Origin: a virus
Reading direction: 5' to 3' (one strand)
DNA: 64,000 bases
IMG/VR virus record: IMGVR_UViG_3300036846_000867
Span: 1 to 64,000 of that record
Shown: piece by piece, positions 3,209 through 41,488 of the stretch
How positions within the stretch are numbered: position 1 is the first letter of the stretch
Layout: each line of letters starts with the position of its first letter
Translations under genes and position numbers: made by a program
Notes under the pieces: generated by a model
What the model was told of the DNA's origin: nothing
Database searches by the model: none
What the model saw: only the letters and a program-made list of their open reading frames with translations

Positions 3209-3215
3209 CGAAAGG

Positions 3216-3227
3216 ATTATACCCCCC
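3216..3227 (-). promoter_or_regulatory. G-run/TATAAT promoter-like box (GGGGGGTATAAT) 7 nt upstream of the int paralog 2 ATG
   Basis: Read on minus strand. Same motif class as 6585, 8469, 13410 and 15219. The spacing implies a leaderless or near-leaderless mRNA. Confidence 0.4.
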
Positions 3228-3234
3228 TTTCTTC

Positions 3235-3456
3235 TCAGTTGCTCAGCCGATGACGGATCGATTGCAGATCGGCGATCATCCCATCGAGCACATCGAGCTT
3301 GATGTGCGCCACCGCCACGTCCCGGTCGCGGTCGCCCAGAACGATCACCGTCATGCCGCAATCCGGGCAAAAGCCGATCTTGATCGTGTCCGCATCATAG
3401 ATGCCGTCGTCCCCGATATCTTCGTGTTCGTGGAATTCGACTTTATCCTGGGTCAT
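3235..3456 (-). CDS. Hypothetical protein (73 aa, acidic, CPDC motif)
   Basis: ORF track. Co-oriented in the leftward operon; 14-nt overlap with the upstream gene. Confidence 0.55.
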   Translation of the reverse strand: MTQDKVEFHEHEDIGDDGIYDADTIKIGFCPDCGMTVIVLGDRDRDVAVAHIKLDVLDGMIADLQSIRHRLSN

Positions 3457-12209: not shown

Positions 12210-13295
12210 TCAGGATGGGCTGATCCAGTCTTCCAGCATCTCGGTGTATTTCTTGAACGGCGGCTGGTTCAGGAGCCCCAGCGGATCGTCGTGCCACGCC
12301 CGCATCCGTGCCGCGTGGTTGTGCGAATTGATGTAGTAGTAGCTCGCCAGCGGACGGCGGTTGCCGGCATAGATCAGCGCGGGCAGGATCGACGGACTGA
12401 CACCGGCCGCCATGTAGAGATCGAATTCCGGCAGTGTCACCGCCGGGGCATTGCCGCTCGCGCCTGTCACGAAACCTGTAGAAGGGATGAATGTCGGCCG
12501 TGGATTTAACCGGACCAGTTCCTCCAATTGCAGAAAAAAGCGGGCGGCGATGTAGGCGTGCGACAGCCATGTCCGCCGCGATTTGCGGTTCTCGCGCAGA
12601 TCGTCGAGATCGATGTCGAGCGCCTCAAACCGCGCGCGGATAAAATCCAAATCCTCGCCCTCGACCATCGAAATATCGCGGGCATGGGAACTGTGGATCA
12701 GCGTCTCGTCGAGATCGGGAAACAGCACGTCATTGTGCTTGCGCTTGGTGGTGTGCCGATGATTGAGCCGCCCGGTTGGAATGCCGTGCAGCATGATCCG
12801 GCCCCATTTCGGCCCGCGCAGCCAGGACGAGCTATCGGCGCTGGCCCACGGATATTTGAACAGCGTCGGCACGTGGGAATTGCCAAAGGCGTGGACCAGC
12901 ACGGTCGGTTCGCCCGCCGCATTGACGATCTTCGACCACGCAAGCTGGAGCGCGTGGTCAATCGCCAGCCCGCGTGTGCTGGTGGTCGAGAAGCCGACAT
13001 AGTCGCAGCCCAGATCGAGCATCCGGTCGATCCAGTCGAGGCTCTCGCGGGCGTGCCAGATCGGGATCGGATCAAAGCCGCGACGGCGCATCTCCTTCAG
13101 ATTGTTGAGGCTGATCTGCGCCGCTTCCTCCGGTTCGTCGGGCGCAATATGGTCGAGCACGACGTATTTGCCGATCCAATCGCTGTTTGCTTCGAGAAAT
13201 TCGCAATACGCGTTGAGATCGATGGCTCGGCCAAGCCGCCATGCCGAATAGCCGCCGCTGTCCACCAGCGTCTTCACGGAACCGTTGGTGGTCAA
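12210..13295 (-). CDS. dpdA: DpdA-like (tRNA-guanine-transglycosylase fold) DNA transglycosylase
   Basis: TTG start 6 nt after AAGGAG. N-terminal LVDSGGYSAW...YVVLDHI resembles the TGT/DpdA DSGG catalytic-Asp motif. Embedded in the replication operon. Confidence 0.65.
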   Translation of the reverse strand: MTTNGSVKTLVDSGGYSAWRLGRAIDLNAYCEFLEANSDWIGKYVVLDHIAPDEPEEAAQISLNNLKEMRRRGFDPIPIWHARESLDWIDRMLDLGCDYVGFSTTSTRGLAIDHALQLAWSKIVNAAGEPTVLVHAFGNSHVPTLFKYPWASADSSSWLRGPKWGRIMLHGIPTGRLNHRHTTKRKHNDVLFPDLDETLIHSSHARDISMVEGEDLDFIRARFEALDIDLDDLRENRKSRRTWLSHAYIAARFFLQLEELVRLNPRPTFIPSTGFVTGASGNAPAVTLPEFDLYMAAGVSPSILPALIYAGNRRPLASYYYINSHNHAARMRAWHDDPLGLLNQPPFKKYTEMLEDWISPS

Positions 13296-18460: not shown

Positions 18461-19051
18461 TCAGTCATTTATCTCCCGTAAGAAAGCAGCACGCTCCTCT
18501 TCGGAAGCACGCTTCCAGACACGGAGTAGATCATCGAGCGGTGTTACCGGCTTGATGATCCCCGCCGCCAGAGCGGCAGCACGTGCCGAACGAAATTCGC
18601 GATTGGCTAAACGTTGGGCGTATTCCGGTGCGTCACGCTTGAGCCGGGCGACGAGATAGGCAGCGGTGGTGCCGTGACTAGGCAAGCTTCTAATAGAAGC
18701 TTGCTCGTCAGCCTTCGTCCTATCCCCACCGGGGAAAGCCAGTTCCGGCACGCCGTCCTCCTGCGCCAGGGCCTGCGCCAGCGTCAGCCGCCGCTCGATG
18801 TGCTCGCGGCGCATGCGAAAGCCGTTACCGTCCGCACAGAAATCATCAAAGCTGCGAAACGGCTGCTGCCGCATGTTCTTTAAGAGACGCCACGCCTCAG
18901 AATCACGAATTGACGTGTAAAGCGCCTCGGCAACATCGCGCCGCCAGCGTGTCGCATGAAATACGCTCAAGAATTCCGCCCGCTTGAGGACAATCCAGGC
19001 CGTCGTTCCATAAGGCGGATCAGGGCCTCTAAGCGGTAGCGCTACCGTCAT
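18461..19051 (-). CDS. Hypothetical, possibly DNA-binding protein (196 aa)
   Basis: ORF track 18461-19057. ATG 19051 preferred (GGAGA 7 nt upstream). The motif HGTTAAYLVARLKRDAPEYAQRLANREFRSARAAALAAGI recurs in phage/plasmid proteins (from memory). Confidence 0.6.
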   Translation of the reverse strand: MTVALPLRGPDPPYGTTAWIVLKRAEFLSVFHATRWRRDVAEALYTSIRDSEAWRLLKNMRQQPFRSFDDFCADGNGFRMRREHIERRLTLAQALAQEDGVPELAFPGGDRTKADEQASIRSLPSHGTTAAYLVARLKRDAPEYAQRLANREFRSARAAALAAGIIKPVTPLDDLLRVWKRASEEERAAFLREIND

Positions 19052-21053
19052 TTTCATTCTCCAATGCCGTCAGAAACATGGCTACTTTGATCAATTCTTC
19101 AGTTGACATCAGTTCCCGCGCCTTGCCAAACCGTCGCATGATCAACCCGTTGGTTGTTCCCCAAGGCCAACCACGCCGCGCATCCAAAGCCCTGCTGCGT
19201 GGTTCAATTGATGCCTTTAGTCTCTCCTCATGCTCCCGACGCCCGATAATCGGCGCGGGAGCTTTACGGGTGGGTATCGGCGGCATACCACACAGCGCCT
19301 CGGCAAAATCATGCATCTCAATTGGCGTTATCGGAAGATCGAACTGCTTAGCCAAATTGACATAATGCGCCGACAATTCGGATGTTAGCTCTGACTTCCC
19401 CAACTCATGGGCATGTAAATCGGTAAGCTCCGAACTTATATGAAAAATCCCCGCTCCAGGAGATGACGAAGAAGAAGGCGAAGACGACGCGCCATCAGGA
19501 TCGTTGTCATCACGGTCTAGTAAACTCTCCTGTTGCTCCTCTTCAATACGCTTAGTCACTTCGAGCATCAACGGATCGTTAAAAGTGACAACGAGCGCCC
19601 GCGTCTGCTTACCGTGCCGTCGTACCACACGCGCAATCGCTTGCTCGATATAAGCACGCGTGCGGTAGACACAACACAAGGCCATGTGCGATGCAGCAGG
19701 CGCGTCCATACCAATATAAGCCTTGCCCACAGTGATCAGAATATCATATCTACTACGGCAAAAATCTCTAATGACAGCATCGGCGTTTGGCTCGTCGGTA
19801 ATCGCCAGACCAACACGAAGATGAGGATAATTCCGGCGCATCCAGTCTCTTCGCTTTGTCGCATTTGGTTGGCTCTCAACTACAATAATCGCCTGACAAT
19901 CCGGATGTTGTCGCCTCGCCTGTTTCCAGCAATCGAGCATCTCGATAATAGCAGCAGTGGCAGCATCTCCCGTCACCGCAGCCCGTATCTGATCACGGAT
20001 TTCTGCCTCGTCGTCACTGCCAAATTTATCAAATTTTTTCTCATTACCATCACGATCAAGATACTCAACCTTAGCATCATGACGATGAAACTCGACAGGA
20101 AGAATAGCCTGAGGCTTAGCATTTAACGCTTGTGTGCGAGAATACTGAATTGTTATCCAGTCAGGATGCACCAGATCAATATTACCATCTGGTGTATAAG
20201 GAACAAAAGCACATGGCCTCCCGTCACCACGATATAAACCGCCGCTCATAATAACCAAAACGGCTGCTCGCTCGACCAGTGGTCGGATTGCTCGTATCCA
20301 TACTTTATCAGTCGAGACAAATTGTTCCTCATCCAGAAACAAAGCATAACGCTTACGCTTAAATTCTTCGAGATGCATATCGGGATCGGCGATAATCGAT
20401 TGATATGTCGTTATATATCCCCGCGCGCCACGACACGGATCGGCGACATTGTCAGCCGCTCGGTAACTGGGATGTTCGACTCCATAAGTGTCAAGCAATC
20501 CAGCGAGGAATTTCGGTATAATCTCTCCCTGCGCCCGCAGGCTCGAACGCGGTGTGAGCCAACAAAAACCGTTGGCAATTCTTTCCGCTATTGCAGTCTG
20601 AGCAAGATAGGGAAGCGTCTGCTTGCCGCCGCCCGGTGTCACCAAAGCCATGATCCGTGTTCTTGTACCCGGCTCGCCAAACCGCAAACAAACTTCGAAA
20701 AACTCACGCTGAAACGAACGCGCTTCCAATCTTTGTGAAATAGCTTGTATGATAGATGAACGCATGATTTTTCCTCCCTTACTTAGGTTACAAAGAACAC
20801 ACAAAGCCTGCATTTCATGTTGATTTGTTCTGTGGCTCAGTCGCCACGGAATAATGTGATCCGCGTGCCAGCCCTTTGGCGGCAGGGGATCACCACAGCG
20901 CGCACAACGACCGTCCGCCGCATACCACAAGCGATTGCGCGCCCGTGATGAACGCAGCAGCCGGGGCGAATTTTTTGGTGACACCGGTCTCATAGGTAGA
21001 ATCTGACCATCCTCACAAACAAGATGGGCATCGTCTTCTGGGACCGGGATCAC
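19029..21053 (-). CDS. HNH endonuclease domain fused to an SF2 (ResIII/DEAD-like) helicase
   Basis: GTG start. HNH CARCG..HADHIIPW..CVLCNLSKG. Helicase motifs TPGGGKQT, FLDEEQ, ITVGKAYIGMDAP, QAIARVVRR. Internal AAGGGAGGAAAAATC-ATG at 20765. Confidence 0.8.
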   Translation of the reverse strand: MIPVPEDDAHLVCEDGQILPMRPVSPKNSPRLLRSSRARNRLWYAADGRCARCGDPLPPKGWHADHIIPWRLSHRTNQHEMQALCVLCNLSKGGKIMRSSIIQAISQRLEARSFQREFFEVCLRFGEPGTRTRIMALVTPGGGKQTLPYLAQTAIAERIANGFCWLTPRSSLRAQGEIIPKFLAGLLDTYGVEHPSYRAADNVADPCRGARGYITTYQSIIADPDMHLEEFKRKRYALFLDEEQFVSTDKVWIRAIRPLVERAAVLVIMSGGLYRGDGRPCAFVPYTPDGNIDLVHPDWITIQYSRTQALNAKPQAILPVEFHRHDAKVEYLDRDGNEKKFDKFGSDDEAEIRDQIRAAVTGDAATAAIIEMLDCWKQARRQHPDCQAIIVVESQPNATKRRDWMRRNYPHLRVGLAITDEPNADAVIRDFCRSRYDILITVGKAYIGMDAPAASHMALCCVYRTRAYIEQAIARVVRRHGKQTRALVVTFNDPLMLEVTKRIEEEQQESLLDRDDNDPDGASSSPSSSSSPGAGIFHISSELTDLHAHELGKSELTSELSAHYVNLAKQFDLPITPIEMHDFAEALCGMPPIPTRKAPAPIIGRREHEERLKASIEPRSRALDARRGWPWGTTNGLIMRRFGKARELMSTEELIKVAMFLTALENENDGSATA

Positions 21054-21136
21054 AGCCTAAACAGAAACCAGCACGGCAGGCAATCGCTTTTTCGCTCCTT
21101 GGCCGGGGCACACCAGAGATCGAGCGTCCAAAATAT

Positions 21137-21176
21137 CGCTACGTATTGACATACGTAGCGGCTCACGTCATATAAC
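21137..21176 (+). promoter_or_regulatory. Promoter with operator palindrome: CGCTACGTAT-TGAC-ATACGTAGCG spanning the -35 TTGACA; -10 CATATAAC
   Basis: Perfect 10-bp inverted repeat at 21137-21160. TTGACA at 21146-21151. TATAAC at 21171-21176. Confidence 0.6.
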
Positions 21177-21200
21177 CGTCTCCTTACCGAGGAGAACGAC

Positions 21201-21533
21201 ATGAGCTATGTAAAGCCCCAGGACGCAGTATCGCCAGTGGCGCATCTGACGATGATCGCGGTGCTCTACGACAACGGACCGGGAGAGGATGCCAGCGCGG
21301 TCATCGAATGGGACGGCGAGCGCCGCATCGGGACGCGCTATAATGGCGATGACGACCATAATCCGGCCGGTCATCCGCAATCCCACGGCCACGCCACGTG
21401 GTTCGTTCAGCCGCCGCAATTCAACGAGGGGATCATCGCCTGCCTGCCGGAAAAGAAGCAGGCGCTCGCCACGGCGCTGCTCGACGGCGAGGACCGTTCG
21501 ATCATCCGCCGCCTGGAAGCCGCCGACGCCTAA
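21201..21533 (+). CDS. Hypothetical protein (110 aa)
   Basis: ORF track. GAGGAG RBS. Ends at the TAA that begins repeat copy 2. Confidence 0.6.
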   Translation: MSYVKPQDAVSPVAHLTMIAVLYDNGPGEDASAVIEWDGERRIGTRYNGDDDHNPAGHPQSHGHATWFVQPPQFNEGIIACLPEKKQALATALLDGEDRSIIRRLEAADA

Positions 21534-21654
21534 AAAGAGCCGGGCGCAGACACAGGCTGTGTCGTCAAAGGGAGGCTGGAGAAGCCTGAGAAGCGCGCCC
21601 GGCCAAGGAGACCATTCTAGGGGAGCCCCCCTATAGCACGGGCTCGGCCTGCGG
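21531..21654. repeat. Structured direct repeat, copy 2
   Basis: 9-bp stem GCCGGGCGC (21539-21547) pairs with GCGCCCGGC (21595-21603). Shares the GAAGCCTG, AGCGCGCCCGGCCAAG and CTATAGCACGGGCTCGGCCTGCGG blocks with copy 1. Confidence 0.85.
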
Positions 21655-22092
21655 CACAAGCAGCGGCAGCAGCCCAGAGCGCCAATATCCGGGATACGCG
21701 ATGTTCATGATGCGGCTGATATCGCTCAAGCCATCGAGCAGCGATTTCGTGTCGGCCTTCAGATCGCGCGCCGCATAATAGGCAGCGATGGCCCGGATGC
21801 AGAGCAGCACCAAGCCACAGCGCTGCGTCTCGTTCAAACCGCTAATCTGTTCGCCGAACCAGTCGTACAAGGCGATGGTCTGGACATCGATTTGCAATTT
21901 GCGCAACTGCACCACGGCAACATGGATGCGCGTAATATCGAACAGGGCATCGGCGACATACTGCGCCTCCCGCGACAGGGGAGAACGGTTGCCGCCCTTG
22001 AGATCGGCAAGCTTCGCCTCGATCCGGTCGCGCTCGTAGCGATCCAGTCCCTCGATGGCGGCGATGATGTCGTCCAGTTCCATCCCTGCCAT
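21631..22092 (-). CDS. Hypothetical protein (153 aa)
   Basis: ORF track. Its stop codon lies in the first 3 nt of the conserved 24-nt repeat block. Confidence 0.6.
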   Translation of the reverse strand: MAGMELDDIIAAIEGLDRYERDRIEAKLADLKGGNRSPLSREAQYVADALFDITRIHVAVVQLRKLQIDVQTIALYDWFGEQISGLNETQRCGLVLLCIRAIAAYYAARDLKADTKSLLDGLSDISRIMNIAYPGYWRSGLLPLLVPQAEPVL

Positions 22093-22130
22093 AATAGGAG
22101 CACCATTCGATATTTCAACCGGAACCCCGT

Positions 22131-22241
22131 TTATCGTTTTTGGCTTCGCCGTTCGACAATGGCATTGAAGGCTATCAGGCCGAAGAAGATCGCGGCTATC
22201 CCGACGAAGAAAATTCCGATGTAGAAAAGCGGCTCATCCAT
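22131..22241 (-). CDS. Possible micro membrane protein (36 aa)
   Basis: Own translation MDEPLFYIGIFFVGIAAIFFGLIAFNAIVERRSQKR. GAGGGA lies immediately upstream (short spacing). Confidence 0.3.
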   Translation of the reverse strand: MDEPLFYIGIFFVGIAAIFFGLIAFNAIVERRSQKR

Positions 22242-22345
22242 CCTTCCCTCACGAACGAAATCTGGCAGCCGAACCGTACTAGTGGGGGACGCCCCTGTAG
22301 AAAACGTCTAGGCTTCCTAACCGCTGGCAGACCGGGAGAGATAGT

Positions 22346-22564
22346 CTGCCAATAAATTTCGGCTTGAGCAGGCTCCAGTTTCCAGTTTCCCCGTTTCGGC
22401 TTTAGCAGGCTACAGCTTCCCCTGTTTCCCCGTTTCGGCTTTAGCAGGCTACAGCTTCCCCTGTTTCCCCGTTTCGGCTTTAGCAGGCTACAGCTTCCCC
22501 TGTTTCCCCGTTTCGGCTTTAGCAGGCTACAGCTTCCAGCTTCAGCAGGCTTCCCCCCCCCCCC
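22346..22564. repeat. 39-bp tandem (iteron-like) array, ~5 copies, ending in a C12 tract
   Basis: Unit GTTTCCCCGTTTCGGCTTTAGCAGGCTACAGCTTCCCCT starts at 22385, 22424, 22463 and 22502. A degenerate copy lies upstream. C12 at 22553-22564. Confidence 0.95.
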
Positions 22565-23171
22565 TTTCCTGTCTAACTCCTGCTACAGCCGTCATATTCA
22601 CACGGGTTGGGGCTGACGGCAGACTACCCCCGTTTCCGGGAGTAATCTGCTTCAGAGCTTCACACTGGGAGCGCCTTAGACAGAAGGGTTCTCGCGAGCT
22701 TCCATCAACTGGAAGCTCCGGGCGGCGTGCATTGTCCCGGTTTTAATCGCTGTTCCACAACACGCGGTGGTCCATCACCGATAGCCAAACCCCGACAAAT
22801 CGGTGACCAAGCAGGGCATCGCGCAGAGACGCGCGACCGCTACGTCTTTCGTCTGCCTTCAAGTGGTGGTAGCTACGATCATCGCCTCACCCACCGGGAG
22901 GGGTTTCATGCCCTCCACGCGATCTAGGCCATCGCACCAGTGCTACCTATGGCTTTTCTTGCTTATCCCGCGACCAGTTCTGCGGCTTGCTATTCCTAAC
23001 GCTCTCTTCTTGCTCCGAAACGTGAGGGGCTTATCCGCAAGCGATTGCGTCTTATCCAGCCACATATCATTGCGTTGCTCTCGTATGAGCCTTTGCAATT
23101 CTTCCTGACGGCTGGACATGCGTGCCCCCGCTTCAGAAGCGATATTTTTACTTTGCGGGAGCAGGACTGAT

Positions 23172-23992: not shown

Positions 23993-24026
23993 ATTCCCTG
24001 TTTTTCCCTGATAAAACAGGGAATTT
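23991..24026 (+). terminator. Perfect 14-bp hairpin starting at the stop codon (terminator-like, no U-tract)
   Basis: AAATTCCCTGTTTT-TCCCTGAT-AAAACAGGGAATTT. Confidence 0.55.
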
Positions 24027-24033
24027 GGCAGGG

Positions 24034-24096
24034 AGTTGGAAGATTGGAAAAAGTTGGAAAAAGTTGGAGAAGTTGGCAGGAGTTGCCAACTTCTCC
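24034..24096 (+). repeat. Five ~10-bp-phased AGTTGGA-type boxes followed by a perfect 12-bp hairpin
   Basis: Boxes at 24034, 24042, 24052, 24062 and 24071. Hairpin GGAGAAGTTGGC-AGGAGTT-GCCAACTTCTCC at 24066-24096. Confidence 0.85.
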
Positions 24097-24159
24097 ACAG
24101 GCCCCTCCGCCAAGCCACGGACGAACCATAAAAAAATGAAACAGGATTAAACCACCGGC

Positions 24160-24190
24160 TTGACATATGGCTTGCTATCCCTTATATGTA
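24160..24190 (+). promoter_or_regulatory. Class I promoter CTTGACATATGG-N-TATATGTAGCG
   Basis: TTGACA at 24160-24165, then 18 nt, then ATATGTA. Same geometry as 8 other sites. Confidence 0.65.
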
Positions 24191-24242
24191 GCGTGCGGAC
24201 GGGAGATGGTTTCCGCCGCCAACAAATGAGGGAGCCAAGAGA

Positions 24243-25580
24243 ATGGCCATGAATTGGCCACGTTGGATCAAGCGGGAATGGCATCGGGTAGCAACTGCTG
24301 CCTTGAGCGCCGAATTCTCTCCGGCCTATGTGATCCCGCCATCGCCGCTGCGGGAGCCGCTCTACGGCGATATCGCGGCGTGCTGGCACCACTACGCTTT
24401 AGACAGCAGCAGCATCCCTGCTATCGCGCCCTCGCCCAGCGACAGCGCCGCCTATAACATGGCGCGATGCATCTGGCTGGCCGACGCCATCGCCGCCAAT
24501 GAGCCGGTCACCGGCTGGCGGTTGAACAGCGCACGACGGCGGGCCTTCGACCGGTTCAATTTCACGCTCGTCCCGTTGGGACGGTCGGCGGGATTGGCGG
24601 TGCGGGCATCGCGGGCGCTGCACGGCGACGCAGCCTGGAACATCGTCCGGTGCAAATGGCTGGAAGCCCAAATCGGCCATCTGGTGCTGAGCGGGGCCGC
24701 CGAGACGGTGCGGACGCCAGCCGAAGCAGCTGTCAGCGGCGATGTCGGACCGGCGGTCATTCTCGACTGGACCAATCTGACATACGGCATCGAGATCGAA
24801 TGCATCCGGCCAACGGATATCTCGATGGCCGATTTCGCGCGGCGGCTGACCGAAGCCGGTGTGCCGTGTAATTCCGAGAACTACAACCATCACGTGCGGA
24901 ATTACTGGAAGATCGTGACCGACGGTTCGCTCAGCGACCGGCGGGGCATCGGCATGGAACTGGTGAGCCCGATCCTGCGGGGCACGGCGGATTTCGAAAT
25001 AATCCGGAAAGTGTCCGAAATCCTGATCGGGCCAAACCGGACACGGCCGATCTGCCGGATCAACAAGACATGCGGGCTGCATGTCCATGTCGGGATGCCG
25101 GTGCAGATCAATGCGCCCGGCGCGCACCGGCTGCCGATCAACGTGCTGCGGCTGTACAACCACTACGAACCGGTGATCGACAGCCTGATGCCGCTCAGCC
25201 GGCGGGCCAATTCCTACGCGCGGCCGACCGCCTTCAATGAGCGGATCGCGGCATCGCCCAATCTCGACCGGCTGCGGACCAGCTACGGCTACGACCGGTA
25301 CCGGAAAGTAAATCTGGAGAGCCTGTGGCGGCACCGGTCAACCGGCGGCACGATTGAATACAGGCAGCATGCCGGGACGACCGAGGCCGACAAGATCATC
25401 GCCTGGGCAACGATGGTGCTCAAGATGACGGCGGTGGCCAACAGCGCTCCAGCGCTGCCCGAGGGGCCGCCGACGCTGGAAGGGCTCCTGGGGCTGGTCG
25501 GCGCGGATGAGGAGGCCCTGGCCTTCTGGACGCGGCGGCAGGCGCTGCTGGCTCCGGCCGACGCCCGGATCGCCGCCTAG
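24243..25580 (+). CDS. Amidoligase_2-family (glutamine-synthetase-like COOH-NH2 ligase) enzyme with ~170-aa N-terminal extension
   Basis: YGIEIECI..WKIVTDGSL..GMELVSPIL..KTCGLHVHVG..GTIEYRQH. GAGGGAG RBS. Confidence 0.8.
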   Translation: MAMNWPRWIKREWHRVATAALSAEFSPAYVIPPSPLREPLYGDIAACWHHYALDSSSIPAIAPSPSDSAAYNMARCIWLADAIAANEPVTGWRLNSARRRAFDRFNFTLVPLGRSAGLAVRASRALHGDAAWNIVRCKWLEAQIGHLVLSGAAETVRTPAEAAVSGDVGPAVILDWTNLTYGIEIECIRPTDISMADFARRLTEAGVPCNSENYNHHVRNYWKIVTDGSLSDRRGIGMELVSPILRGTADFEIIRKVSEILIGPNRTRPICRINKTCGLHVHVGMPVQINAPGAHRLPINVLRLYNHYEPVIDSLMPLSRRANSYARPTAFNERIAASPNLDRLRTSYGYDRYRKVNLESLWRHRSTGGTIEYRQHAGTTEADKIIAWATMVLKMTAVANSAPALPEGPPTLEGLLGLVGADEEALAFWTRRQALLAPADARIAA

Positions 25581-25643
25581 CGCGGCATGAACTAAGGCGG
25601 CGGGGACATTCCGCCGCCCTCTTTGCAACCGAAGGACGAGACC

Positions 25644-25886
25644 ATGATCCACACCAATGACGGCAAGATACTGCGGGCGACGCAGCCGAAGGACATCGTC
25701 ACCGAACTCAACGACATGAGCTTCGAGCCGGAGACCACGTCGGAGAAATTCATGACCGAGAGCGCGGGCCGCATCCTGGCCTTCTCGGGGCGGAAAATCC
25801 GCACCGACTGCGCCGATAACTACGTCACCGATCTGTTCAAATACGGTTTCCTCTCGACCGATGAGGGGCCGGTGAAGACCGATTGA
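25644..25886 (+). CDS. Hypothetical protein (80 aa)
   Basis: ORF track 25623 trimmed to ATG 25644 (GAAGGA RBS). Confidence 0.55.
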   Translation: MIHTNDGKILRATQPKDIVTELNDMSFEPETTSEKFMTESAGRILAFSGRKIRTDCADNYVTDLFKYGFLSTDEGPVKTD

Positions 25887-25911
25887 GGCCAGCAGCAAAG
25901 GGAGCCTGCCG

Positions 25912-26877
25912 ATGCTCGACAGCAATATCAGTCTCAGGGGACCGCAACGCGAGATCATCGACTACATGCGAACCGCCTATGGCATCGAGGACATCAAAGT
26001 TCGCCCAGGTGGCAAGCATATCCACATCGAATATGTCTACCGTGGGCAGACGCACAAGGACACGCTACCGAACGGGCATGCTGTCGATCCGAACTGGATC
26101 AGCGTGCGCAAGCACGATCTGCGCAAGGAACTGGGCGATCCGCCCGCCGTCGTCGCGCCGCCGCCAAGGAGGAGGAGCCTCGAAGAAATGACGCAGGAAG
26201 CGCAGGCGAAGGCCGATCTGCTGGCCAGCACCGCAATCGCCACGGTGGTCTTACCGTCGAAATCATCGACGGTGATCCCGGCGATCCCAGCCGGGATGGG
26301 CAAGACGGCACCGGCTACGTCGCCGATCCCGCTGCCAAAATTCGCCTGCTCGGTCGGCTCGCTGAAGCATTCGAACGATATTTCGTTCTATCTCGGGAAA
26401 GAACTCGGCGATGCGATGGATACGCAATTCGGCGCGGGCCGCCGCTACGTCATCGGCTACAGCCATCCCGGCCTGTGGACGGCCCGCCCGTCGATGACCG
26501 ACGGACGCGCCATCGAGACGAATCACCGGCTGCACTGCCGTGGCTCGGAGACGATCAAGAAGCTGGGCAAGTTCCAAGGGACCAAATGCGAGGCGATGCT
26601 GCATCACAACCGCGTCGAATTTCGGTTGGCCGCGCCGGTCGAACTGCTCAAGCCCCAATTTCCCCCTACGGGGGAAATCCAAAAAACCAGTGAGCCTGTG
26701 CCAATGCCGGAGCCACACAAACCAGAACCTGTCGCATCGCCGCCGCCTGCCGATCCGCGCGAGCGGCTGCGGTCGGTGCTGCGGCAGATCAAGGAGATCG
26801 AGGAAGAGGGCACCTACCGGCTGATCAGCGAGAACGGCTGGCGCTGGCGGGCCAATGACATTGGCTTGGAAGATTAA
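25912..26877 (+). CDS. Hypothetical protein (321 aa)
   Basis: ORF track. GGGAG RBS. Pro-rich linker regions. Confidence 0.65.
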   Translation: MLDSNISLRGPQREIIDYMRTAYGIEDIKVRPGGKHIHIEYVYRGQTHKDTLPNGHAVDPNWISVRKHDLRKELGDPPAVVAPPPRRRSLEEMTQEAQAKADLLASTAIATVVLPSKSSTVIPAIPAGMGKTAPATSPIPLPKFACSVGSLKHSNDISFYLGKELGDAMDTQFGAGRRYVIGYSHPGLWTARPSMTDGRAIETNHRLHCRGSETIKKLGKFQGTKCEAMLHHNRVEFRLAAPVELLKPQFPPTGEIQKTSEPVPMPEPHKPEPVASPPPADPRERLRSVLRQIKEIEEEGTYRLISENGWRWRANDIGLED

Positions 26878-26908
26878 CTTCATGAAAGCACACTGGAGGA
26901 ATAACTTC

Positions 26909-27136
26909 ATGAAAGTACAAACGACAGTCGGTGTCGTGCTCAACGAAGAGGAATTCAGAGCATTGACCAAAGGCAAGACCATCTACGTTACGGACGGGGG
27001 ACTGACAGTGCGGCTGCTCCTGGCCGATATCGGCTTCCCGGCAATGGTAGACGCGATCAAGGAGGCCGTACAGGCGGTCGGCGTCGAGCCGCCCGAAATC
27101 TGCATCATCCCGCCGGGCGATCCGCTGAAACTGTGA
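26909..27136 (+). CDS. Hypothetical protein (75 aa)
   Basis: ORF track 26855 trimmed to ATG 26909 (GGAGGA RBS). AACTTCATGAAAG is duplicated at 26876 and 26904. Confidence 0.5.
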   Translation: MKVQTTVGVVLNEEEFRALTKGKTIYVTDGGLTVRLLLADIGFPAMVDAIKEAVQAVGVEPPEICIIPPGDPLKL

Positions 27137-27152
27137 GCGAGTTCGTCTCCGC

Positions 27153-27183
27153 TTGATTTATGGTCTACTAACCGCTATATATA
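27153..27183 (+). promoter_or_regulatory. Class I promoter TTGATT-N18-ATATATAAAGCGG
   Basis: Read directly. Confidence 0.6.
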
Positions 27184-27205
27184 AAGCGGAAAGGAGACCC
27201 GATAA

Positions 27206-27382
27206 ATGATGAAAAAGCTGCTGATGGCGCTGGCGATGATGGCAGTAGCCCATTTGATGCCCCCCGAAATGCTCGACGGCCTCCTCCACTGGACGGCACA
27301 CTACGCAGCCGACCATCTTTGCGAAACCAAGTACGGTATCAAGATGGTCAATCTGAGCGCGGTCAAGCATCTGAAAGGATAG
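27206..27382 (+). CDS. Micro-ORF, 58 aa, signal-peptide/TM-like N-terminus
   Basis: Own translation MMKKLLMALAMMAVAHLMPP... AAGGAG RBS. Below the ORF-track cutoff. Confidence 0.5.
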   Translation: MMKKLLMALAMMAVAHLMPPEMLDGLLHWTAHYAADHLCETKYGIKMVNLSAVKHLKG

Positions 27383-27435
27383 GGAGAATAAGATTTTACG
27401 CCGGTTTTGAAACCCGGAGTTGGCTAAAGCGAGAC

Positions 27436-27466
27436 TTGACATATGGGGCATAAACCACCATATGTA
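27436..27466 (+). promoter_or_regulatory. Class I promoter CTTGACATATGG-N-ATATGTAAATCG
   Basis: Read directly. Confidence 0.65.
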
Positions 27467-27485
27467 AATCGAAAGGAAAGTCTCG

Positions 27486-27614
27486 ATGTACGCCAAAGTT
27501 ACCGTCGCCTCAACCGATCTGTTCCTCTACATGGTTCTGGCGGTCGGCGGAACCGGCTGCGGGCTAGCATTCTACAGTCTGAAAATGCTCGCCAGCCTGT
27601 CTCTGGGATTGTGA
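27486..27614 (+). CDS. Micro-ORF, 42 aa, one TM helix
   Basis: Own translation MYAKVTVASTDLFLYMVLAVGGTGCGLAFYSL... AAAGGAAAG RBS. Confidence 0.45.
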   Translation: MYAKVTVASTDLFLYMVLAVGGTGCGLAFYSLKMLASLSLGL

Positions 27615-27631
27615 TCTGAAGGGAGACTGAG

Positions 27632-27796
27632 ATGTTCAACCACACCGCTTTCATCCTCTCGAAGCTGGCCAAACGGGGCAGCTATCACGGCAAGGAGAAG
27701 GGCGCGGAATGGCGGGCCGCCAAGCTGTTGGCGGACGGCGATCCCTCGCTCGTCTATGCCGAGGTGGACGGCAAATGGTCTCTGAAAAAGGGATAG
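27632..27796 (+). CDS. Micro-ORF, 54 aa
   Basis: Own translation MFNHTAFILSKLAKRGSYHGKEKGAEW... GGGAGA RBS. Confidence 0.45.
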   Translation: MFNHTAFILSKLAKRGSYHGKEKGAEWRAAKLLADGDPSLVYAEVDGKWSLKKG

Positions 27797-27798
27797 AT

Positions 27799-28041
27799 AT
27801 GCCCAAGCTCTATGAAGCGGTAACGCAAGTTACCAAAGACATTCCTTACTCGCGCCAGCTATTCTGCGAAGGAGAGATCACCGAGGGCCATCACCGCTGG
27901 GAGATCGCCTTCGAGGGCGTCGATGGACTGCCCGTAATCGAATGGGTATGGGCGAAGAATGCCAGCGATGCTGTCACTCATTTCCTAAGCCTGCACGGCT
28001 CGCTCTTCTTCACGGTTCGCCTAACCAGCGACAACGAATAG
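27799..28041 (+). CDS. Hypothetical protein (80 aa)
   Basis: ORF track 27709 trimmed to ATG 27799, 2 nt after the upstream stop. Confidence 0.55.
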   Translation: MPKLYEAVTQVTKDIPYSRQLFCEGEITEGHHRWEIAFEGVDGLPVIEWVWAKNASDAVTHFLSLHGSLFFTVRLTSDNE

Positions 28042-28068
28042 GAAGCAGCAACGCGGCTAAAAATAAAC

Positions 28069-28099
28069 TTGAATTCTGGGCTTCTCTTCGCTATATATA
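28069..28099 (+). promoter_or_regulatory. Class I promoter TTGAAT-N18-ATATATAAAGCG
   Basis: Read directly. Confidence 0.6.
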
Positions 28100-28119
28100 A
28101 AGCGAAGGGAGAAAAAAAG

Positions 28120-28242
28120 ATGTTTGGTATGATGATGTCGATGGCCTCTCTGATGCTAGCCGCCAGCCTGTTCTATCTGGTGTACAAATCCGCCGCCGCC
28201 GACACGGAATACGCCTACGTGTTTGAAAGCACGGGGGGATAA
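28120..28242 (+). CDS. Micro-ORF, 40 aa, one TM helix
   Basis: Own translation MFGMMMSMASLMLAASLFYLVYKSAAAD... AAGGGAGA RBS. Stop abuts the GGCT ATG. Confidence 0.45.
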   Translation: MFGMMMSMASLMLAASLFYLVYKSAAADTEYAYVFESTGG

Positions 28243-29076
28243 ATGAGCAGGACGATGAAATTGATGTGGGCCTATGGCTCAAATCTTAACAAGCGCCAGA
28301 TGCTGCTCCGCTGCCCCGCAGCGGTGCCGCTGGAGGCGCTGACCGTACAAAATCTCATCCTGCGCTTTCGTGGCGTCGCCGATGTTGCCTATCGCACCGG
28401 GGCGTATTGCGAGGGCGCGTTGTGGGCGATCACGCGCGACTGCGAGCGCGCTCTCGACGATTATGAGGGCGTCGGATCGGGCGGCTTCGGCGGGCTCTAC
28501 CGCAAATGCCATTTCGACTATGTCGATCCGGACAGCGGCGAGCAGCACCGCGTGCTGTATTACAAGATGAACCGTCACGGCATCATGCCGCCCAGCGAGG
28601 GATATCTCGATTGCATTCTGCAAGGCTATGCCGATTTCGGCATCGATACCGCGCGGCTGATCAAGGCGGTCGAGCACGCGTGGCGCAGGAAGGACATGAA
28701 CGGCTTCATGGCCTATCGCTGGGAGAAAGCGGGCAAGCCGAGGATGGCGCGGATCGAGCGAATCGCGACGGTCTTCGAAGGCGACGTGGAGGGCGATCCG
28801 GAGCCGGGCGAGATTACCAAGCTGCCGACCAAGCAGGCCGCCAGGGACACCACGATGCCGGATGTCTGCCTGCGCGTCGATCCGGACAATCCGAACCATT
28901 GCCGCGCCGTCGTGCTGACCGAGAAAGGCGAGAGATACTTCGCCGAGAATATCAAGGCGGACAAGGAGGACACCGAATGGCGGTTCAAATTCTCGACGCA
29001 CGTGGTCGCGGGGCTGCTGCAAAAGAAGCGGCTGAGCGTCACCATCCTGGAGAAGCTGAGAAAGCTCCGCGCATGA
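28243..29076 (+). CDS. Gamma-glutamylcyclotransferase (GGCT/AIG2-like) domain fused to an unknown C-terminal half
   Basis: N-terminal WAYGSNLNKRQM..LRF..GALWAI..ALDDYEGV..YRK pattern of the GGCT fold. 277 aa. Confidence 0.75.
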   Translation: MSRTMKLMWAYGSNLNKRQMLLRCPAAVPLEALTVQNLILRFRGVADVAYRTGAYCEGALWAITRDCERALDDYEGVGSGGFGGLYRKCHFDYVDPDSGEQHRVLYYKMNRHGIMPPSEGYLDCILQGYADFGIDTARLIKAVEHAWRRKDMNGFMAYRWEKAGKPRMARIERIATVFEGDVEGDPEPGEITKLPTKQAARDTTMPDVCLRVDPDNPNHCRAVVLTEKGERYFAENIKADKEDTEWRFKFSTHVVAGLLQKKRLSVTILEKLRKLRA

Positions 29077-29396
29077 TCTGCCTAACCTGCATGGGCGCAG
29101 GCCGCCGATTAAACCCCGGCCTGCGCATCATCGCCTACGACGAGCATGGCATGCACGTCGAAATTCACAATCCCTGCCAATTGTCGGTGATGATCGAATG
29201 CTCCGAATGCAGCGGCAGCGGCAATGCCAATGGCAATACGCCGTCGCAGCGCATGCGGCTGATGATCGAAGACGTAGATGGACTGATCAGAGAGATATGG
29301 GCGGCGCAGCCAATGCTGCGGGCGAAGCGCAACGTCATCCTCAACCGCCTTCACCGCATCCGTCACAATCTCGAAATCCTGCGTAACGCAGCATGA
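29073..29396 (+). CDS. Small protein with two DnaJ-type CxxCxGxG zinc-finger motifs (107 aa)
   Basis: ATGA overlap with the GGCT stop. CLTCMGAG and CSECSGSG. Sits in the frame of the long shadow ORF 28506-29396. Confidence 0.55.
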   Translation: MICLTCMGAGRRLNPGLRIIAYDEHGMHVEIHNPCQLSVMIECSECSGSGNANGNTPSQRMRLMIEDVDGLIREIWAAQPMLRAKRNVILNRLHRIRHNLEILRNAA

Positions 29397-33764: not shown

Positions 33765-34532
33765 ATGAACGCATCGCAGATGATCGTCAACGAACGCGCC
33801 GGGCCGATTGACAAGACCGTGCTCTTGTTCAGCGGAGGTATGGACAGCCTGTGCTACGCGCATCTGCTGAAGCCCGATCTCCTGCTCTACATCCCGACCG
33901 GGGCTCGCTACGAGATAACGGAGAGTTGGTGGGTTAGCCAGCTTCTATTCCAGAACATGCTGCCTCCCGAGAGCGAGCTATTGACGTTGGGCGGCGCGCT
34001 CGATCTGAGCCGCTACGAGCGTAGCGACATGATCGTGCCGAACCGCAACGCCCATCTGGTGATGCTCGCCTCGCATTACGGCGACACGATCCATCTGTCG
34101 TCGGTCGATGGTGACCGCTCGACCGACAAGGACGAGCAGTTCTATGCGCTGATGACCGTGCTGCTCGATCACATGTGGCAGAAGCAGCATTGGTGCGATC
34201 CGGCGCGGCGCTTCAAGATCGAAGCCCCGTTCAAGCACCTGACCAAGCGCCAGTTGGTGCAGTTATACTTGGCCGATGGCGGCGATCCCACCGTGTTCCG
34301 CGTCAGCTATTCCTGCTATCGCGGCGAGCGCAAACACTGCGGCGTCTGCAAGCCGTGCTTCCGCAAGCGCGTCGCCCTGGAACTCAATTTCATCGTGCTC
34401 AAGGATTACTGGGAGCAGGATTTCTGGGAGACGCAATGGTACGTCGATCTGCTGCCACTGATCCAACGAGGCCAGTATCGTGGCGAAGAGGATCGCGATA
34501 TCATGGAATTTGCCAAACGTATGAGCATTTGA
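33765..34532 (+). CDS. queC: QueC-like PP-loop ATPase (7-cyano-7-deazaguanine synthase family)
   Basis: PP-loop LLFSGGMDSLC. C-terminal zinc motif SCYRGERKHCGVCKPCFRKR. GGAGGGTATAGA box ends 5 nt before the ATG. Confidence 0.75.
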   Translation: MNASQMIVNERAGPIDKTVLLFSGGMDSLCYAHLLKPDLLLYIPTGARYEITESWWVSQLLFQNMLPPESELLTLGGALDLSRYERSDMIVPNRNAHLVMLASHYGDTIHLSSVDGDRSTDKDEQFYALMTVLLDHMWQKQHWCDPARRFKIEAPFKHLTKRQLVQLYLADGGDPTVFRVSYSCYRGERKHCGVCKPCFRKRVALELNFIVLKDYWEQDFWETQWYVDLLPLIQRGQYRGEEDRDIMEFAKRMSI

Positions 34533-35678: not shown

Positions 35679-35879
35679 TTGCGATTTGTCTGGTTTTATC
35701 TGTACATTCAGATGTTCATTTTCGGCGGCCTCGCGACTGCGATCTTCCTCGATTTCGTAAAGGGGCTCGCAAGGCGGCTCGCAAGGCGGCTCGCAAGGCG
35801 GTGGCGCGTAATACGGCTCGCAAGACGGCTGTCCAAACCAAGAGAACCCCCAATCGCCGATGCCGACATAGCAGATTAA
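35679..35879 (+). CDS. Small membrane protein (66 aa) with (LARR)3 tail encoded by a 12-bp x3 tandem repeat (35765-35800)
   Basis: TTG start after GGGAGAG. TM helix FVWFYLYIQMFIFGGLATAIFLDFV. Stops just before the terminator, whereas the alternative frame 35663-35908 reads through the hairpin. Confidence 0.45.
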   Translation: MRFVWFYLYIQMFIFGGLATAIFLDFVKGLARRLARRLARRWRVIRLARRLSKPREPPIADADIAD

Positions 35880-35903: not shown

Positions 35904-35915
35904 CGTAGAGAGTTA

Positions 35916-41410: not shown

Positions 41411-41437
41411 ATTTCACGGCCAGATGCCCTATATGTA
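41407..41437 (+). promoter_or_regulatory. Class I promoter TTGAAT-N18-ATATGTAAAGCGG
   Basis: Read directly. Overlaps the end of ORF 41195-41410. Confidence 0.6.
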
Positions 41438-41488
41438 AAGCGGACGCGGGAGATGGTTTCCGGTCCCGAATAGATTGTGAGGTGTCGA

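What the first reader, a model, noticed from the sequence alone, without database searches (positions are those of the whole stretch)
24160..29076. Amidoligase_2 plus GGCT enzymes in one early rightward block: candidate uncharacterised ligation / hypermodification system
Sequence shows: a 445-aa ORF (24243-25580) carries the Amidoligase_2 hallmarks (YGIEIECI, WKIVTDGSL, GMELVSPIL, KTCGLHVHVG, GTIEYRQH). It sits behind a conserved TTGACA-type promoter and a conserved leader hairpin. It is followed by 80-aa and 321-aa unknowns and several micro-ORFs. Next comes a 277-aa ORF (28243-29076) whose N-terminal ~140 aa have gamma-glutamylcyclotransferase motifs (AYGSNL, DDYEGV), fused to an unknown C-terminal half. 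The ligase has a ~170-aa N-terminal extension with an internal duplication (AAYNMARCIWLADAI / AAWNIVRCKWLEAQI). Established: comparative genomics (Iyer, Abhiman, Burroughs and Aravind 2009) predicted phage amidoligase + GGCT cassettes as amino-acid/peptide ligation systems. To my knowledge their substrate and biological role are not experimentally defined. Inference: this genome also encodes DpdA and QueC, so a carboxylated base or nucleotide (for example 7-carboxy-7-deazaguanine) or a protein tag is an attractive substrate. GGCT would then trim or recycle gamma-glutamyl adducts.
Basis: partly seen in the sequence, partly recalled or inferred. Interest (0 to 1): 0.8.

Follow-up and report, generated by a model that had tools for sequence, protein, structure and literature searches.

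The report
Phage amidoligase, small partner, GGCT cassette
An uncultured ~114-kb phage carries a variant of a widespread but biochemically untested mobile-element module (an ATP-dependent amide ligase plus a gamma-glutamyl-removing enzyme), which also includes a conserved 80-residue partner protein that the held literature and family libraries do not describe, and which is not linked to the phage's 7-deazaguanine DNA-modification genes.

Summary
ORF 24243-25580 is an intact Amidoligase_2 (GS/GCS-fold) ligase. ORF 28243-29076 is a GGCT-fold enzyme that keeps the YGSNL motif and the catalytic Glu. DpdA-like and QueC-like genes are also in the window. The ligase-GGCT pairing is already a known prediction (Iyer 2009, as cited in later papers); no experimental work was found.

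None of 149 other ligase loci has QueC or DpdA within 6 kb. Three unrelated cassette-bearing phage genomes lack the whole pathway. DpdA-positive Arthrobacter phages lack the cassette. The ligase module also sits on Bacteroides conjugative transposons.

Its family has 1,125 representatives and no Pfam, PHROG or PDB match. It lies immediately 3' of the ligase in 127 of 149 loci.

This clade's version is a variant. It has a 175-residue helical N-extension, a clade-only 321-aa ORF, and a GGCT with an extra C-terminal module that sits 2.4 kb downstream behind its own promoter.

Best reading: a writer/eraser pair for a gamma-glutamyl-type amide on an unknown amine-bearing target.

The parts
24159..24190 (+). 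Promoter-like motif (cTTGACA, N17, TATATGTA) in front of the ligase operon
   Evidence: One of at least 8 copies of the same motif on the + strand. Conserved in relative L002.
24193..24225 (+). Conserved leader segment GTGCGGACGGGAGATGGTTTCCGCCGCCAACAA
   Evidence: Nearly invariant in L002 and L004, with a second copy at 41424-41462. Hairpin energy is not exceptional (z=-0.01).
24243..25580 (+). Amidoligase_2 carboxylate-amine ligase, 445 aa: helical N-extension (1-150), disordered linker (151-170), catalytic domain (178-445)
   Evidence: PF12224 at 89 bits. Invariant E184/E186/E239/H280/H282/R320/R321/E372/R374/H376. AF2 pLDDT 87. Foldseek top hits are YbdK, GS, GshF and GmaS.
25644..25886 (+). 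80-aa conserved partner protein of the ligase (the third component)
   Evidence: Homologous ORFs lie 3' of ligases in unrelated elements. 127 of 149 loci have it. Family of 1,125 representatives with no Pfam, PHROG or PDB match. AF2 pLDDT 90.6.
25912..26877 (+). 321-aa clade-restricted protein of unknown function, 25 nt after the small protein
   Evidence: Only 14 homologues, all at least 44% identical and all from this clade. No Pfam, PHROG, NCBIfam, PADLOC or PDB match.
26909..28242 (+). Variable stretch of micro-ORFs (75, 58, 42, 54, 88 and 40 aa) with three internal promoter motifs (27152, 27435, 28068). Each promoter is followed first by a short hydrophobic ORF.
   Evidence: Gene calls on the source contig, promoter repeats and translations. 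Content differs in relatives L002 and L004.
28243..29076 (+). GGCT-fold (AIG2_2-type) cyclotransferase, residues ~1-170, then an acidic linker and a ~70-aa clade-specific C-terminal module
   Evidence: PF13772 at 30.1 bits and phrog_2520. YGSNL motif and E75 aligned to human GGCT E98. Alignment with standalone partners from L005, L008 and L021.
29073..29396 (+). 107-aa Cys-rich (Zn-ribbon-like) ORF whose start overlaps the GGCT stop codon. Conserved after the GGCT in relatives. Membership of the system is uncertain.
   Evidence: Gene call. Orthologues in L002 (14864-15181) and L004 (15672-15989). No family hits.

Best explanation
The block is a clade-specific variant of a widespread accessory module of mobile elements (phages and conjugative transposons). 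It has three parts: a GS/GCS-fold ATP-dependent carboxylate-amine ligase (Amidoligase_2), a tightly coupled ~80-residue partner protein, and a GGCT-fold cyclotransferase.

Proposed mechanism (inferred):
1. Early in infection the ligase, probably in complex with the small protein as a specificity or activating subunit, uses ATP to form an acyl-phosphate on a carboxylate. This is most likely the gamma-carboxylate of glutamate, as in all of its characterised structural neighbours.
2. It joins that carboxylate to an amine on a target that is not yet known.
3. The GGCT enzyme later removes the adduct. The free alpha-amine of the gamma-glutamyl group attacks its own amide, which releases 5-oxoproline and the free amine.

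The pair would therefore act as writer and eraser of a temporary gamma-glutamyl-type tag. The module does not depend on the DpdA/QueC 7-deazaguanine genes of this phage.

Shown: component identities, intact active sites, fold, gene linkage and phyletic independence from DpdA/QueC.

Inferred: glutamate as the acyl donor, the writer/eraser logic, the small protein as a ligase subunit, and early timing.
For: Ligase:
- PF12224 at 89 bits.
- Invariant metal/ATP-type residues across 23 homologues.
- The confident model matches YbdK/GCS2, glutamine synthetases, GshF, gamma-glutamylmethylamide synthetase and naphthylamine gamma-glutamylating GS at probability 1.00. All of these are gamma-glutamyl-forming enzymes (established knowledge).

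GGCT:
- Above the Pfam cutoff, with YGSNL and the catalytic Glu conserved.
- All characterised GGCT-fold enzymes cleave gamma-glutamyl amides by cyclisation (established knowledge).

Linkage:
- GGCT is adjacent to the ligase in 4 of 4 distant contexts sampled first, in cultured phages Waltz, 055SW001, GR1 and C75C1, and in 23 of 30 ligase clusters at 50% identity.
- In Waltz a glutamine-amidotransferase-like gene is also adjacent.
- The small protein is 3'-adjacent in 127 of 149 loci, and 146 of 150 family hits are next to a ligase. Start and stop codons often overlap.
- All three genes are retained in clade relatives at 60-70% identity, while the ORFs between them turn over.

Location: the ligase sits at the head of an early-type operon here and in C75C1, and inside a conjugative transposon in Bacteroides.
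Against: - No biochemical data exist for any family member in the literature searched.
- The acyl donor and the target are unknown.
- In this window the ligase and the GGCT are 2.4 kb apart, with three promoter motifs between them, so co-regulation is not shown.
- Most ligase plus small-protein loci (102 of 127) have no GGCT nearby. An eraser is therefore not obligatory, and the simple writer/eraser picture may be incomplete.
- A ligase and a GGCT acting on the same unmodified adduct would form a futile cycle.
- The small protein's role is inferred only from linkage. It has no conserved Lys, Cys or C-terminus, and no structural neighbour of known function.
Confidence: 0.5

Rival explanations
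1. The ligase acts on a 7-deazaguanine intermediate or base (for example 7-carboxy-7-deazaguanine) made through QueC and inserted by DpdA. This would give an amino-acid-hypermodified DNA base, and the GGCT would trim the adduct.
For: DpdA-like and QueC-like genes are in the same genome. QueC-like is retained in relative L002. The QueC-like protein is atypical, at 48.7 bits against an equivalog cutoff of 150.3. No QueD, QueE or FolE homologue is seen in the 64-kb window, so the pathway here is non-canonical.
Against: The genes are 8-12 kb away, and DpdA lies on the other strand in the replication module. 0 of 149 other ligase loci has QueC or DpdA within 6 kb. Three complete or near-complete cassette-bearing phage genomes lack the whole pathway, with positive controls working. 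DpdA-positive phage records (186) are mostly Escherichia, Pseudomonas, Vibrio and Rhizobium phages, and none of the listed ones overlaps the listed ligase-positive records. Mufasa8 and Sonali have the full pathway without the cassette. The ligase and small-protein pair also occurs in a conjugative transposon.
Confidence: 0.05
2. The published prediction. The cassette modifies the peptidoglycan stem peptide or its cytoplasmic precursors, for example to block superinfection or to tune lysis.
For: This is how the module is described in phage genome papers that cite Iyer 2009 (PMC11945000; PMC11318856). Stem peptides contain gamma-linked glutamate and free amines (established knowledge). It is compatible with the chemistry proposed above, as it is one specific choice of target.
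Against: It is purely predictive. None of the three proteins has a detected signal peptide, cell-wall-binding domain or Mur-ligase-like domain. The cassette occurs in hosts with very different walls, including Bacteroidota, Actinomycetota, Bacillota and an unknown high-GC host. A GGCT needs a free alpha-amine on an L-gamma-glutamyl group, which the stem-peptide D-isoglutamate does not have (established knowledge).
Confidence: 0.15
3. A protein-targeting or counter-defence system. The ligase with its 80-aa partner glutamylates (or otherwise amidates) a host or element protein during establishment in a new cell. Alternatively, the 80-aa protein is itself the substrate or carrier.
For: The module sits in early or accessory regions of phages and on conjugative transposons, where establishment and anti-defence genes are typically found. 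The small protein is strictly coupled to the ligase. It has conserved surface-type residues S26, R43, R53 and D63.
Against: No PADLOC hit and no known anti-defence family hit. No conserved Lys or C-terminal residue that would suit a tag or an amine acceptor. No experimental precedent for this family.
Confidence: 0.15
4. In this particular phage the ligase operon and the GGCT gene are independent accessory genes. They are merely neighbours in a moron-rich early region.
For: Separate promoter motifs, 2.4 kb of variable micro-ORFs between them, and a GGCT that is co-transcribed with its own 40-aa hydrophobic ORF and a Zn-ribbon ORF. Most ligase loci have no GGCT.
Against: Both genes are retained in all three clade members while the spacer turns over. 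The window's GGCT is the same AIG2_2 subtype that directly follows ligases in L005, L008 and L021. C75C1 shows the same split layout independently.
Confidence: 0.1

Closest known systems
Phage and mobile-element Amidoligase_2 (PF12224) neighbourhoods with an AIG2/GGCT cyclotransferase or a GAT-like peptidase (Iyer, Abhiman, Burroughs and Aravind 2009; later called a 'putative peptidoglycan modification module')
   Same: Same ligase family, above the Pfam threshold with intact residues. Same partner family (GGCT fold). Carried on a phage in an accessory or early region.
   Different: The ligase has a 175-residue helical N-extension. This replaces the ~70-residue HTH-like N-domain of ordinary members and is unrelated to it (hhalign P=0.64). 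The GGCT is displaced 2.4 kb downstream behind its own promoter and carries an extra C-terminal module. A clade-only 321-aa ORF is inserted. The 80-aa partner is not mentioned in any text I could read, but I could not access the 2009 paper itself.
Gamma-glutamyl tagging pathways that pair a GS-like ligase with a gamma-glutamyl-removing enzyme. Examples: PuuA/PuuD in putrescine catabolism, and BtrJ/BtrG in butirosin biosynthesis, where BtrG is a GGCT-fold enzyme.
   Same: Same logic: an ATP-dependent ligase makes a gamma-glutamyl amide on an amine, and a second enzyme removes it. PuuA-type enzymes share the GS fold, and gamma-glutamyl-amine-forming GS-fold enzymes (GmaS, naphthylamine GS) are among the Foldseek hits. 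BtrG shares the GGCT fold. The resemblance to these pathways is from my own knowledge, not a test.
   Different: No sequence-level membership. BtrJ is an ATP-grasp enzyme, not GS-fold. PuuD is a class I amidotransferase-type hydrolase. No intermediate-processing enzymes are encoded between the ligase and the GGCT here. The target amine is unknown.
Small-protein conjugation or carrier systems with carboxylate-amine ligases (Pup-PafA/Dop; LysW-LysX)
   Same: A small protein of about 60-80 residues is encoded next to an amide-forming ligase.
   Different: Pup and LysW work through a conserved C-terminal Glu or Gln. This family has no conserved C-terminus and no conserved Lys, and it folds into a compact beta-alpha3-beta domain. 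Membership was tested and not met.
Phage 7-deazaguanine DNA modification clusters (DpdA with FolE, QueD, QueE and QueC)
   Same: The window encodes a DpdA-like and a QueC-like protein.
   Different: They are not adjacent to the cassette. QueC-like scores below the equivalog cutoff. No QueD, QueE or FolE is present in the window. The cassette does not co-occur with these genes across other elements.

Membership tests
Amidoligase_2 (PF12224) / GS-GCS-fold carboxylate-amine ligases | Profile match above the curated threshold | tested here: met
   89.1 bits against a cutoff of 22, E=5.6e-25. phrog_2443, 2.5e-27.
Amidoligase_2 (PF12224) / GS-GCS-fold carboxylate-amine ligases | Conserved acidic, His and Arg residues of the metal/ATP site | tested here: met
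   E184, E186, E239, H280, H282, R320, R321, R352, K355, N357, E372, R374 and H376 are invariant in 23 homologues down to 28% identity.
Amidoligase_2 (PF12224) / GS-GCS-fold carboxylate-amine ligases | GS/GCS-type fold | tested here: met
   AF2 pLDDT 87. Foldseek top hits are YbdK 1r8g (E=1.2e-4), GS, GshF and GmaS, all at probability 1.00. TM-scores are only ~0.3-0.4 because the query includes the N-extension.
Amidoligase_2 (PF12224) / GS-GCS-fold carboxylate-amine ligases | ATP-dependent amide-bond formation | not testable with these tools
   Needs an enzyme assay. No family member has a solved structure by sequence search, and no biochemistry was found.
GGCT / AIG2 fold cyclotransferases | Profile match above the curated threshold | tested here: met
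   AIG2_2 PF13772 at 30.1 bits against a cutoff of 27. GGACT PF06094 is below its cutoff (20 against 22.8). phrog_2520, 2.3e-16.
GGCT / AIG2 fold cyclotransferases | YGSL/YGSN substrate-binding motif and catalytic glutamate | tested here: met
   Y11-G12-S13-N14-L15 is identical to human GGCT. E75 aligns with E98, and 3cry is the E98Q mutant. Both are invariant in 6 AIG2_2-type partners.
Amidoligase-GGCT gene neighbourhood (Iyer 2009 type) | Ligase and cyclotransferase encoded side by side in one operon | tested here: inconclusive
   Same strand and same early block, but 2.4 kb apart with three promoter motifs in between. Conserved as a pair in clade relatives. Adjacent in most other lineages.
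Ligase-associated small-protein family (unnamed, defined here) | Profile match and position immediately 3' of an Amidoligase_2 gene | tested here: met
   The window ORF scores 1.3e-37 against the narrow profile and 1.3e-26 against the 150-sequence profile. It starts 64 nt after the ligase stop. 146 of 150 hits are ligase-adjacent.
Phage DpdA / 7-deazaguanine modification system | The cassette genes belong to, or co-occur with, the DpdA/preQ0 gene set | tested here: not met
   0 of 149 loci. Three cassette-bearing genomes lack the pathway. DpdA-positive Arthrobacter phages lack the cassette.
Phage DpdA / 7-deazaguanine modification system | Bona fide QueC (equivalog-level match) | tested here: not met
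   TIGR00364 at 48.7 bits against a cutoff of 150.3. Only residues 87-200 match.
Pup / LysW-type small-protein tags | Conserved C-terminal Glu or Gln used for ligation | tested here: not met
   The C-termini are variable. The conserved positions are internal: S26, M37, R43, R53 and D63.
Known anti-phage defence or catalogued systems (PADLOC) | Any component matches a catalogued model | tested here: not met
   No hits for the ligase, the small protein, the 321-aa protein, the GGCT or the Zn-ribbon ORF.

The most novel reading that the evidence does not exclude
The ligase and the 80-aa protein form an obligate two-subunit enzyme that is spread across phages and conjugative transposons (more than 1,000 sequence clusters). 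It installs a previously undescribed amino-acid modification on a host or element macromolecule during establishment in a new cell. GGCT or GAT-like enzymes act as optional erasers. This would be a new class of mobile-element host-manipulation or counter-defence system, and the unusual N- and C-terminal modules of this clade would retarget it.
Probability: 0.2. Interest if true: 0.75.

Novelty: new variant of a known kind. Interest (0 to 1): 0.45.

Why it matters
Amidoligase_2 cassettes are common in phages and conjugative elements of gut, oral, soil and aquatic bacteria. They have carried the same untested prediction since 2009.

Showing that the ligase almost always comes with a specific 80-residue partner changes how the system should be tested. 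The two proteins should be co-expressed and co-purified, rather than assaying the ligase alone. It also gives a cleaner genomic marker for the module.

Showing that the module is independent of DpdA/QueC removes an attractive but misleading lead about DNA hypermodification.

For this window taken alone the finding is modest. It is a divergent member of a known predicted system in an uncultured phage with no identified host.

Tried and rejected
- Near-identical DNA search of the block in the phage collection: no match.
- Host identification through prophages in GTDB genomes: the best ligase match is only 44% identical.
- The Iyer 2009 paper could not be opened by PMC id or by DOI. Its content is taken from papers that cite it and from my memory of the Pfam description.
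- Small-protein fold against the PDB: nothing significant (best E=3.9). The weak ACP and ChaC hits are at random level. BFVD returned only unnamed viral proteins.
- I considered an ACP-like carrier idea (invariant Ser) and rate it unlikely. The Ser lies at the end of helix 1 rather than at the start of helix 2, and no ACP profile matches.
- I rejected a Pup/LysW-like tag because no C-terminus is conserved.
- The N-extension as tandem copies of the common HTH-like N-domain: rejected (hhalign P=0.64).
- The 'internal duplication' is only an 11-residue motif.
- The 321-aa protein and the GGCT C-terminal module: no hits in Pfam, PHROGs, NCBIfam, PADLOC or PDB profiles.
- The leader as a known RNA: no Rfam family. 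The hairpin is no more stable than shuffles.
- My first adjacency count for the small protein was too strict, because stop-to-stop ORFs overlap the ligase. It was corrected.

Full report
**1. Observation**

The window is part of an uncultured phage. The identical ligase protein is on record with a longest contig of 114,005 bp. Relatives lie on contigs of 110-117 kb.

The genome is myovirus-like. It has baseplate and tail-fibre genes at 47-63 kb, and a leftward replication module with a DNA polymerase, clamp loader, RNR and a UvsX-like recombinase. Two integrases sit at 405-3370.

- ORF 24243-25580 matches Pfam Amidoligase_2 at 89 bits (cutoff 22) over residues 178-395, and matches phrog_2443.
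- ORF 28243-29076 passes the AIG2_2 threshold (30.1 against 27 bits) and matches the PHROG gamma-glutamyl cyclotransferase family.
- Its YGSNL motif is identical to human GGCT, and E75 aligns with the catalytic E98.

The promoter-like motif in front of the ligase recurs at least eight times on the + strand. Three of those copies lie between the ligase operon and the GGCT, so the two enzymes are not in one simple operon.

The leader segment after the promoter is almost invariant in two relatives and has a second copy at 41424. Its hairpin is no more stable than shuffled sequence.

The 'internal duplication' of the N-extension is an 11-residue repeated helix motif of modest significance. The GGCT domain is about 170 residues long, followed by an acidic linker and a ~70-residue clade-specific module.

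DpdA-like (12210-13295, minus strand) and QueC-like (33765-34532) genes are present. The QueC-like protein scores far below the QueC equivalog cutoff.

**2. What the enzymes are**

An alignment of 23 ligase homologues, down to 28% identity, keeps an invariant set of Glu, His and Arg residues typical of GS/GCS-type ligases.

The AlphaFold model (pLDDT 87) has three parts: an all-helical N-terminal module (1-150), a disordered linker, and a catalytic domain. Its best PDB neighbours are YbdK/GCS2, glutamine synthetases, GshF, gamma-glutamylmethylamide synthetase and a naphthylamine gamma-glutamylating GS, all at probability 1.00.

By sequence, no member of Amidoligase_2 has a solved structure.

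**3. Linkage across elements**

The first four distant ligase homologues I looked up all have a GGCT-fold gene directly downstream, in unrelated backbones. Cultured phages show the same pairing:

| Phage | Arrangement |
|---|---|
| Arthrobacter phage Waltz | GGACT, ligase, glutamine amidotransferase |
| Bacillus phage 055SW001 | ligase, then GGCT about 1 kb downstream |
| Geobacillus phage GR1 | ligase, then GGCT |
| Phage C75C1 | ligase, tiny ORFs, then a 298-aa GGCT |

In C75C1 the ligase is the first gene of an early operon, as it is here.

The pairing is a known prediction. Phage papers cite Iyer et al. 2009 and call it a putative peptidoglycan modification module. I found no experimental study.

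**4. A third component**

The 80-aa ORF after the ligase is homologous to the small ORFs that sit between the ligase and the GGCT in a Mu-like phage and in a jumbo-phage clade.
- An exhaustive HMMER search found 1,125 cluster representatives at E<=1e-3. Nearly all of the best 150 are standalone proteins of 72-90 residues.
- The window protein has no Pfam, PHROG, NCBIfam or PADLOC hit, the family profile has no PDB sequence hit, and the homologues carry no precomputed Pfam domain.
- The model is confident (pLDDT 90.6, beta-alpha3-beta). It has no significant PDB neighbour and matches only unnamed viral proteins in BFVD.

I then collected 160 further ligase loci with the family profile: 80 from IMG/VR and 80 from GTDB genomes. 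Of these, 149 have at least 800 nt downstream of the ligase:

| Neighbour of the ligase | Loci (of 149) |
|---|---|
| Small protein immediately 3' | 127 |
| GGCT-fold gene nearby | 38 |
| Both | 25 |
| None of small protein, GGCT or GAT | 4 |

Across all loci, 146 of 150 small-protein hits are ligase-adjacent.

After dereplication by ligase identity:

| Identity threshold | Clusters | Small protein | GGCT | Both |
|---|---|---|---|---|
| 90% | 102 | 74 | 45 | 27 |
| 50% | 30 | 16 | 23 | 13 |

These loci were chosen by similarity to the window's ligase. The figures therefore describe this ligase subfamily, not all of PF12224.

The conserved residues of the small protein are S26, M37, R43, R53 and D63, plus glycines. 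There is no conserved Lys or Cys, and the C-terminus is not conserved. This argues against a Pup/LysW-type tag and favours a ligase-binding subunit.

**5. Where the module lives**

In Bacteroides xylanisolvens the ligase and small-protein pair lies between a ParA-like gene with DUF3408 genes and a TraG P-loop ATPase. That is a conjugative-transposon transfer region. The module therefore travels on both phages and conjugative elements.

**6. The DpdA/QueC idea**

- None of the 149 loci has QueC or DpdA within 6 kb.
- In the window these genes lie 8-12 kb from the ligase, so I also searched whole genomes. Porphyromonas phage 019b, phage C75C1 and 96% of Waltz contain no DpdA, QueC, QueD, QueE or FolE. 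The positive controls worked in both directions.
- DpdA-like genes occur in 186 phage records, mostly Escherichia, Pseudomonas, Vibrio and Rhizobium phages. None of the listed ones overlaps the listed ligase-positive records.
- Arthrobacter phages Mufasa8 and Sonali have the classical FolE-QueD-QueE-QueC-DpdA-ParB module and no cassette in the ~15 kb around it.

Co-residence in this clade is therefore a single lineage event and not evidence of coupling.

**7. What is particular to this clade**

- The ligase N-extension is unrelated to the HTH-like ~70-residue N-domain of ordinary subfamily members.
- A 321-aa protein follows the small protein after 25 nt and is found only in this clade.
- The spacer of micro-ORFs differs between relatives, while ligase, small protein, 321-aa ORF, GGCT and Zn-ribbon ORF are all retained.
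- Each internal promoter is followed first by a short hydrophobic ORF.

**8. Mechanism and verdict**

All structural neighbours of the ligase make gamma-glutamyl amides, and all characterised GGCT-fold enzymes break them by cyclisation. The other partner reported for this ligase family, a GAT-like thiol peptidase (my recollection of the Pfam description), resembles gamma-glutamyl hydrolases such as PuuD; this comparison is also from my own knowledge.

The best-supported reading is a writer/eraser pair for a gamma-glutamyl-type tag on an unknown amine, with the 80-aa protein as a ligase subunit. I put this at about 0.5.

The target cannot be decided here. It could be a peptidoglycan precursor, a protein or a small-molecule amine.

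The finding is real, but its headline pairing is already known as a prediction, and its proposed link to deazaguanine is not supported. The conserved small partner and the variant architecture are the new elements.

Noticed in passing
window 22382-22576: Four head-to-tail copies of a 39-bp unit (CCTGTTTCCCCGTTTCGGCTTTAGCAGGCTACAGCTTCC) in the intergenic region between the leftward and rightward gene blocks. They could be iterons, an origin or a regulatory array.
   Followed up: no
window 24000-24100: A run of short GTTGGA(A/G)-type repeats and a 14-bp-stem inverted repeat (24065-24097) just upstream of the ligase promoter.
   Followed up: no
window 24159, 27152, 27435, 28068, 34865, 35915, 36914, 41404: A phage-specific promoter-like consensus, cTTGAca-N17-cTATATaTAAA, recurs on the + strand. 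The generic sigma-70 scan missed all copies. The three copies inside the block are each followed first by a 40-58-aa hydrophobic ORF.
   Followed up: partly
window 24193-24225 and 41424-41462; L002 ~9950-9985; L004 ~9870-9905: A leader sequence (GACGGGAGATGGTTTCCGCCGCC) is nearly invariant between relatives whose coding DNA has diverged. It is present behind two different promoters. It matches no Rfam family, and its fold is no more stable than shuffles. It may be a protein-binding or translational control element.
   Followed up: partly
window 12210-13295 (-) and 33765-34532 (+): A DpdA-like transglycosylase sits in the replication module, and a QueC-like PP-loop protein sits 20 kb away on the other strand. 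The QueC-like protein is far below the QueC equivalog cutoff and has a weak QatC-like hit. No QueD, QueE or FolE homologue is in the 64-kb window. This may be a non-canonical deazaguanine pathway or one that depends on host precursors.
   Followed up: partly
L004 1-1510 (relative on 116.6-kb contig Ga0376662_0000028): A clade relative encodes a Mom-like protein (PF25680) and a DndB-like protein (PF14072) about 8.5-10 kb upstream of its ligase. This hints at further DNA-modification functions in the clade.
   Followed up: no
window 405-3370 (-): Two adjacent tyrosine-integrase-like genes (385 and 603 aa) in a ~114-kb myovirus-like genome.
   Followed up: no
window 19029-21053 (-): A 674-aa protein that combines an N-terminal HNH endonuclease region with a helicase region.
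   Followed up: no
window 35752-35830: A short array of 12-bp repeats (GGCTCGCAAGGC) upstream of the promoter motif at 35915.
   Followed up: no
L135 (Bacteroides xylanisolvens XB1A, NC_021017.1 3050218-3062949): The ligase and small-protein pair is embedded in a conjugative-transposon transfer region (ParA-like, DUF3408 x2, TraG P-loop, DUF4141). Many of the 80 bacterial loci are from Bacteroidota.
   Followed up: partly
L183 (phage C75C1, OQ984151.1) 20149-22830: An independent example of the split layout. The ligase is the first gene of an early operon, followed by four tiny ORFs and then an unusually long (298-aa) GGCT.
   Followed up: no
P0155 (155 aa): One representative of the small-protein family is a tandem duplication of the domain. 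A few others carry short C-terminal extensions, including a Cys-rich one (P0189).
   Followed up: no
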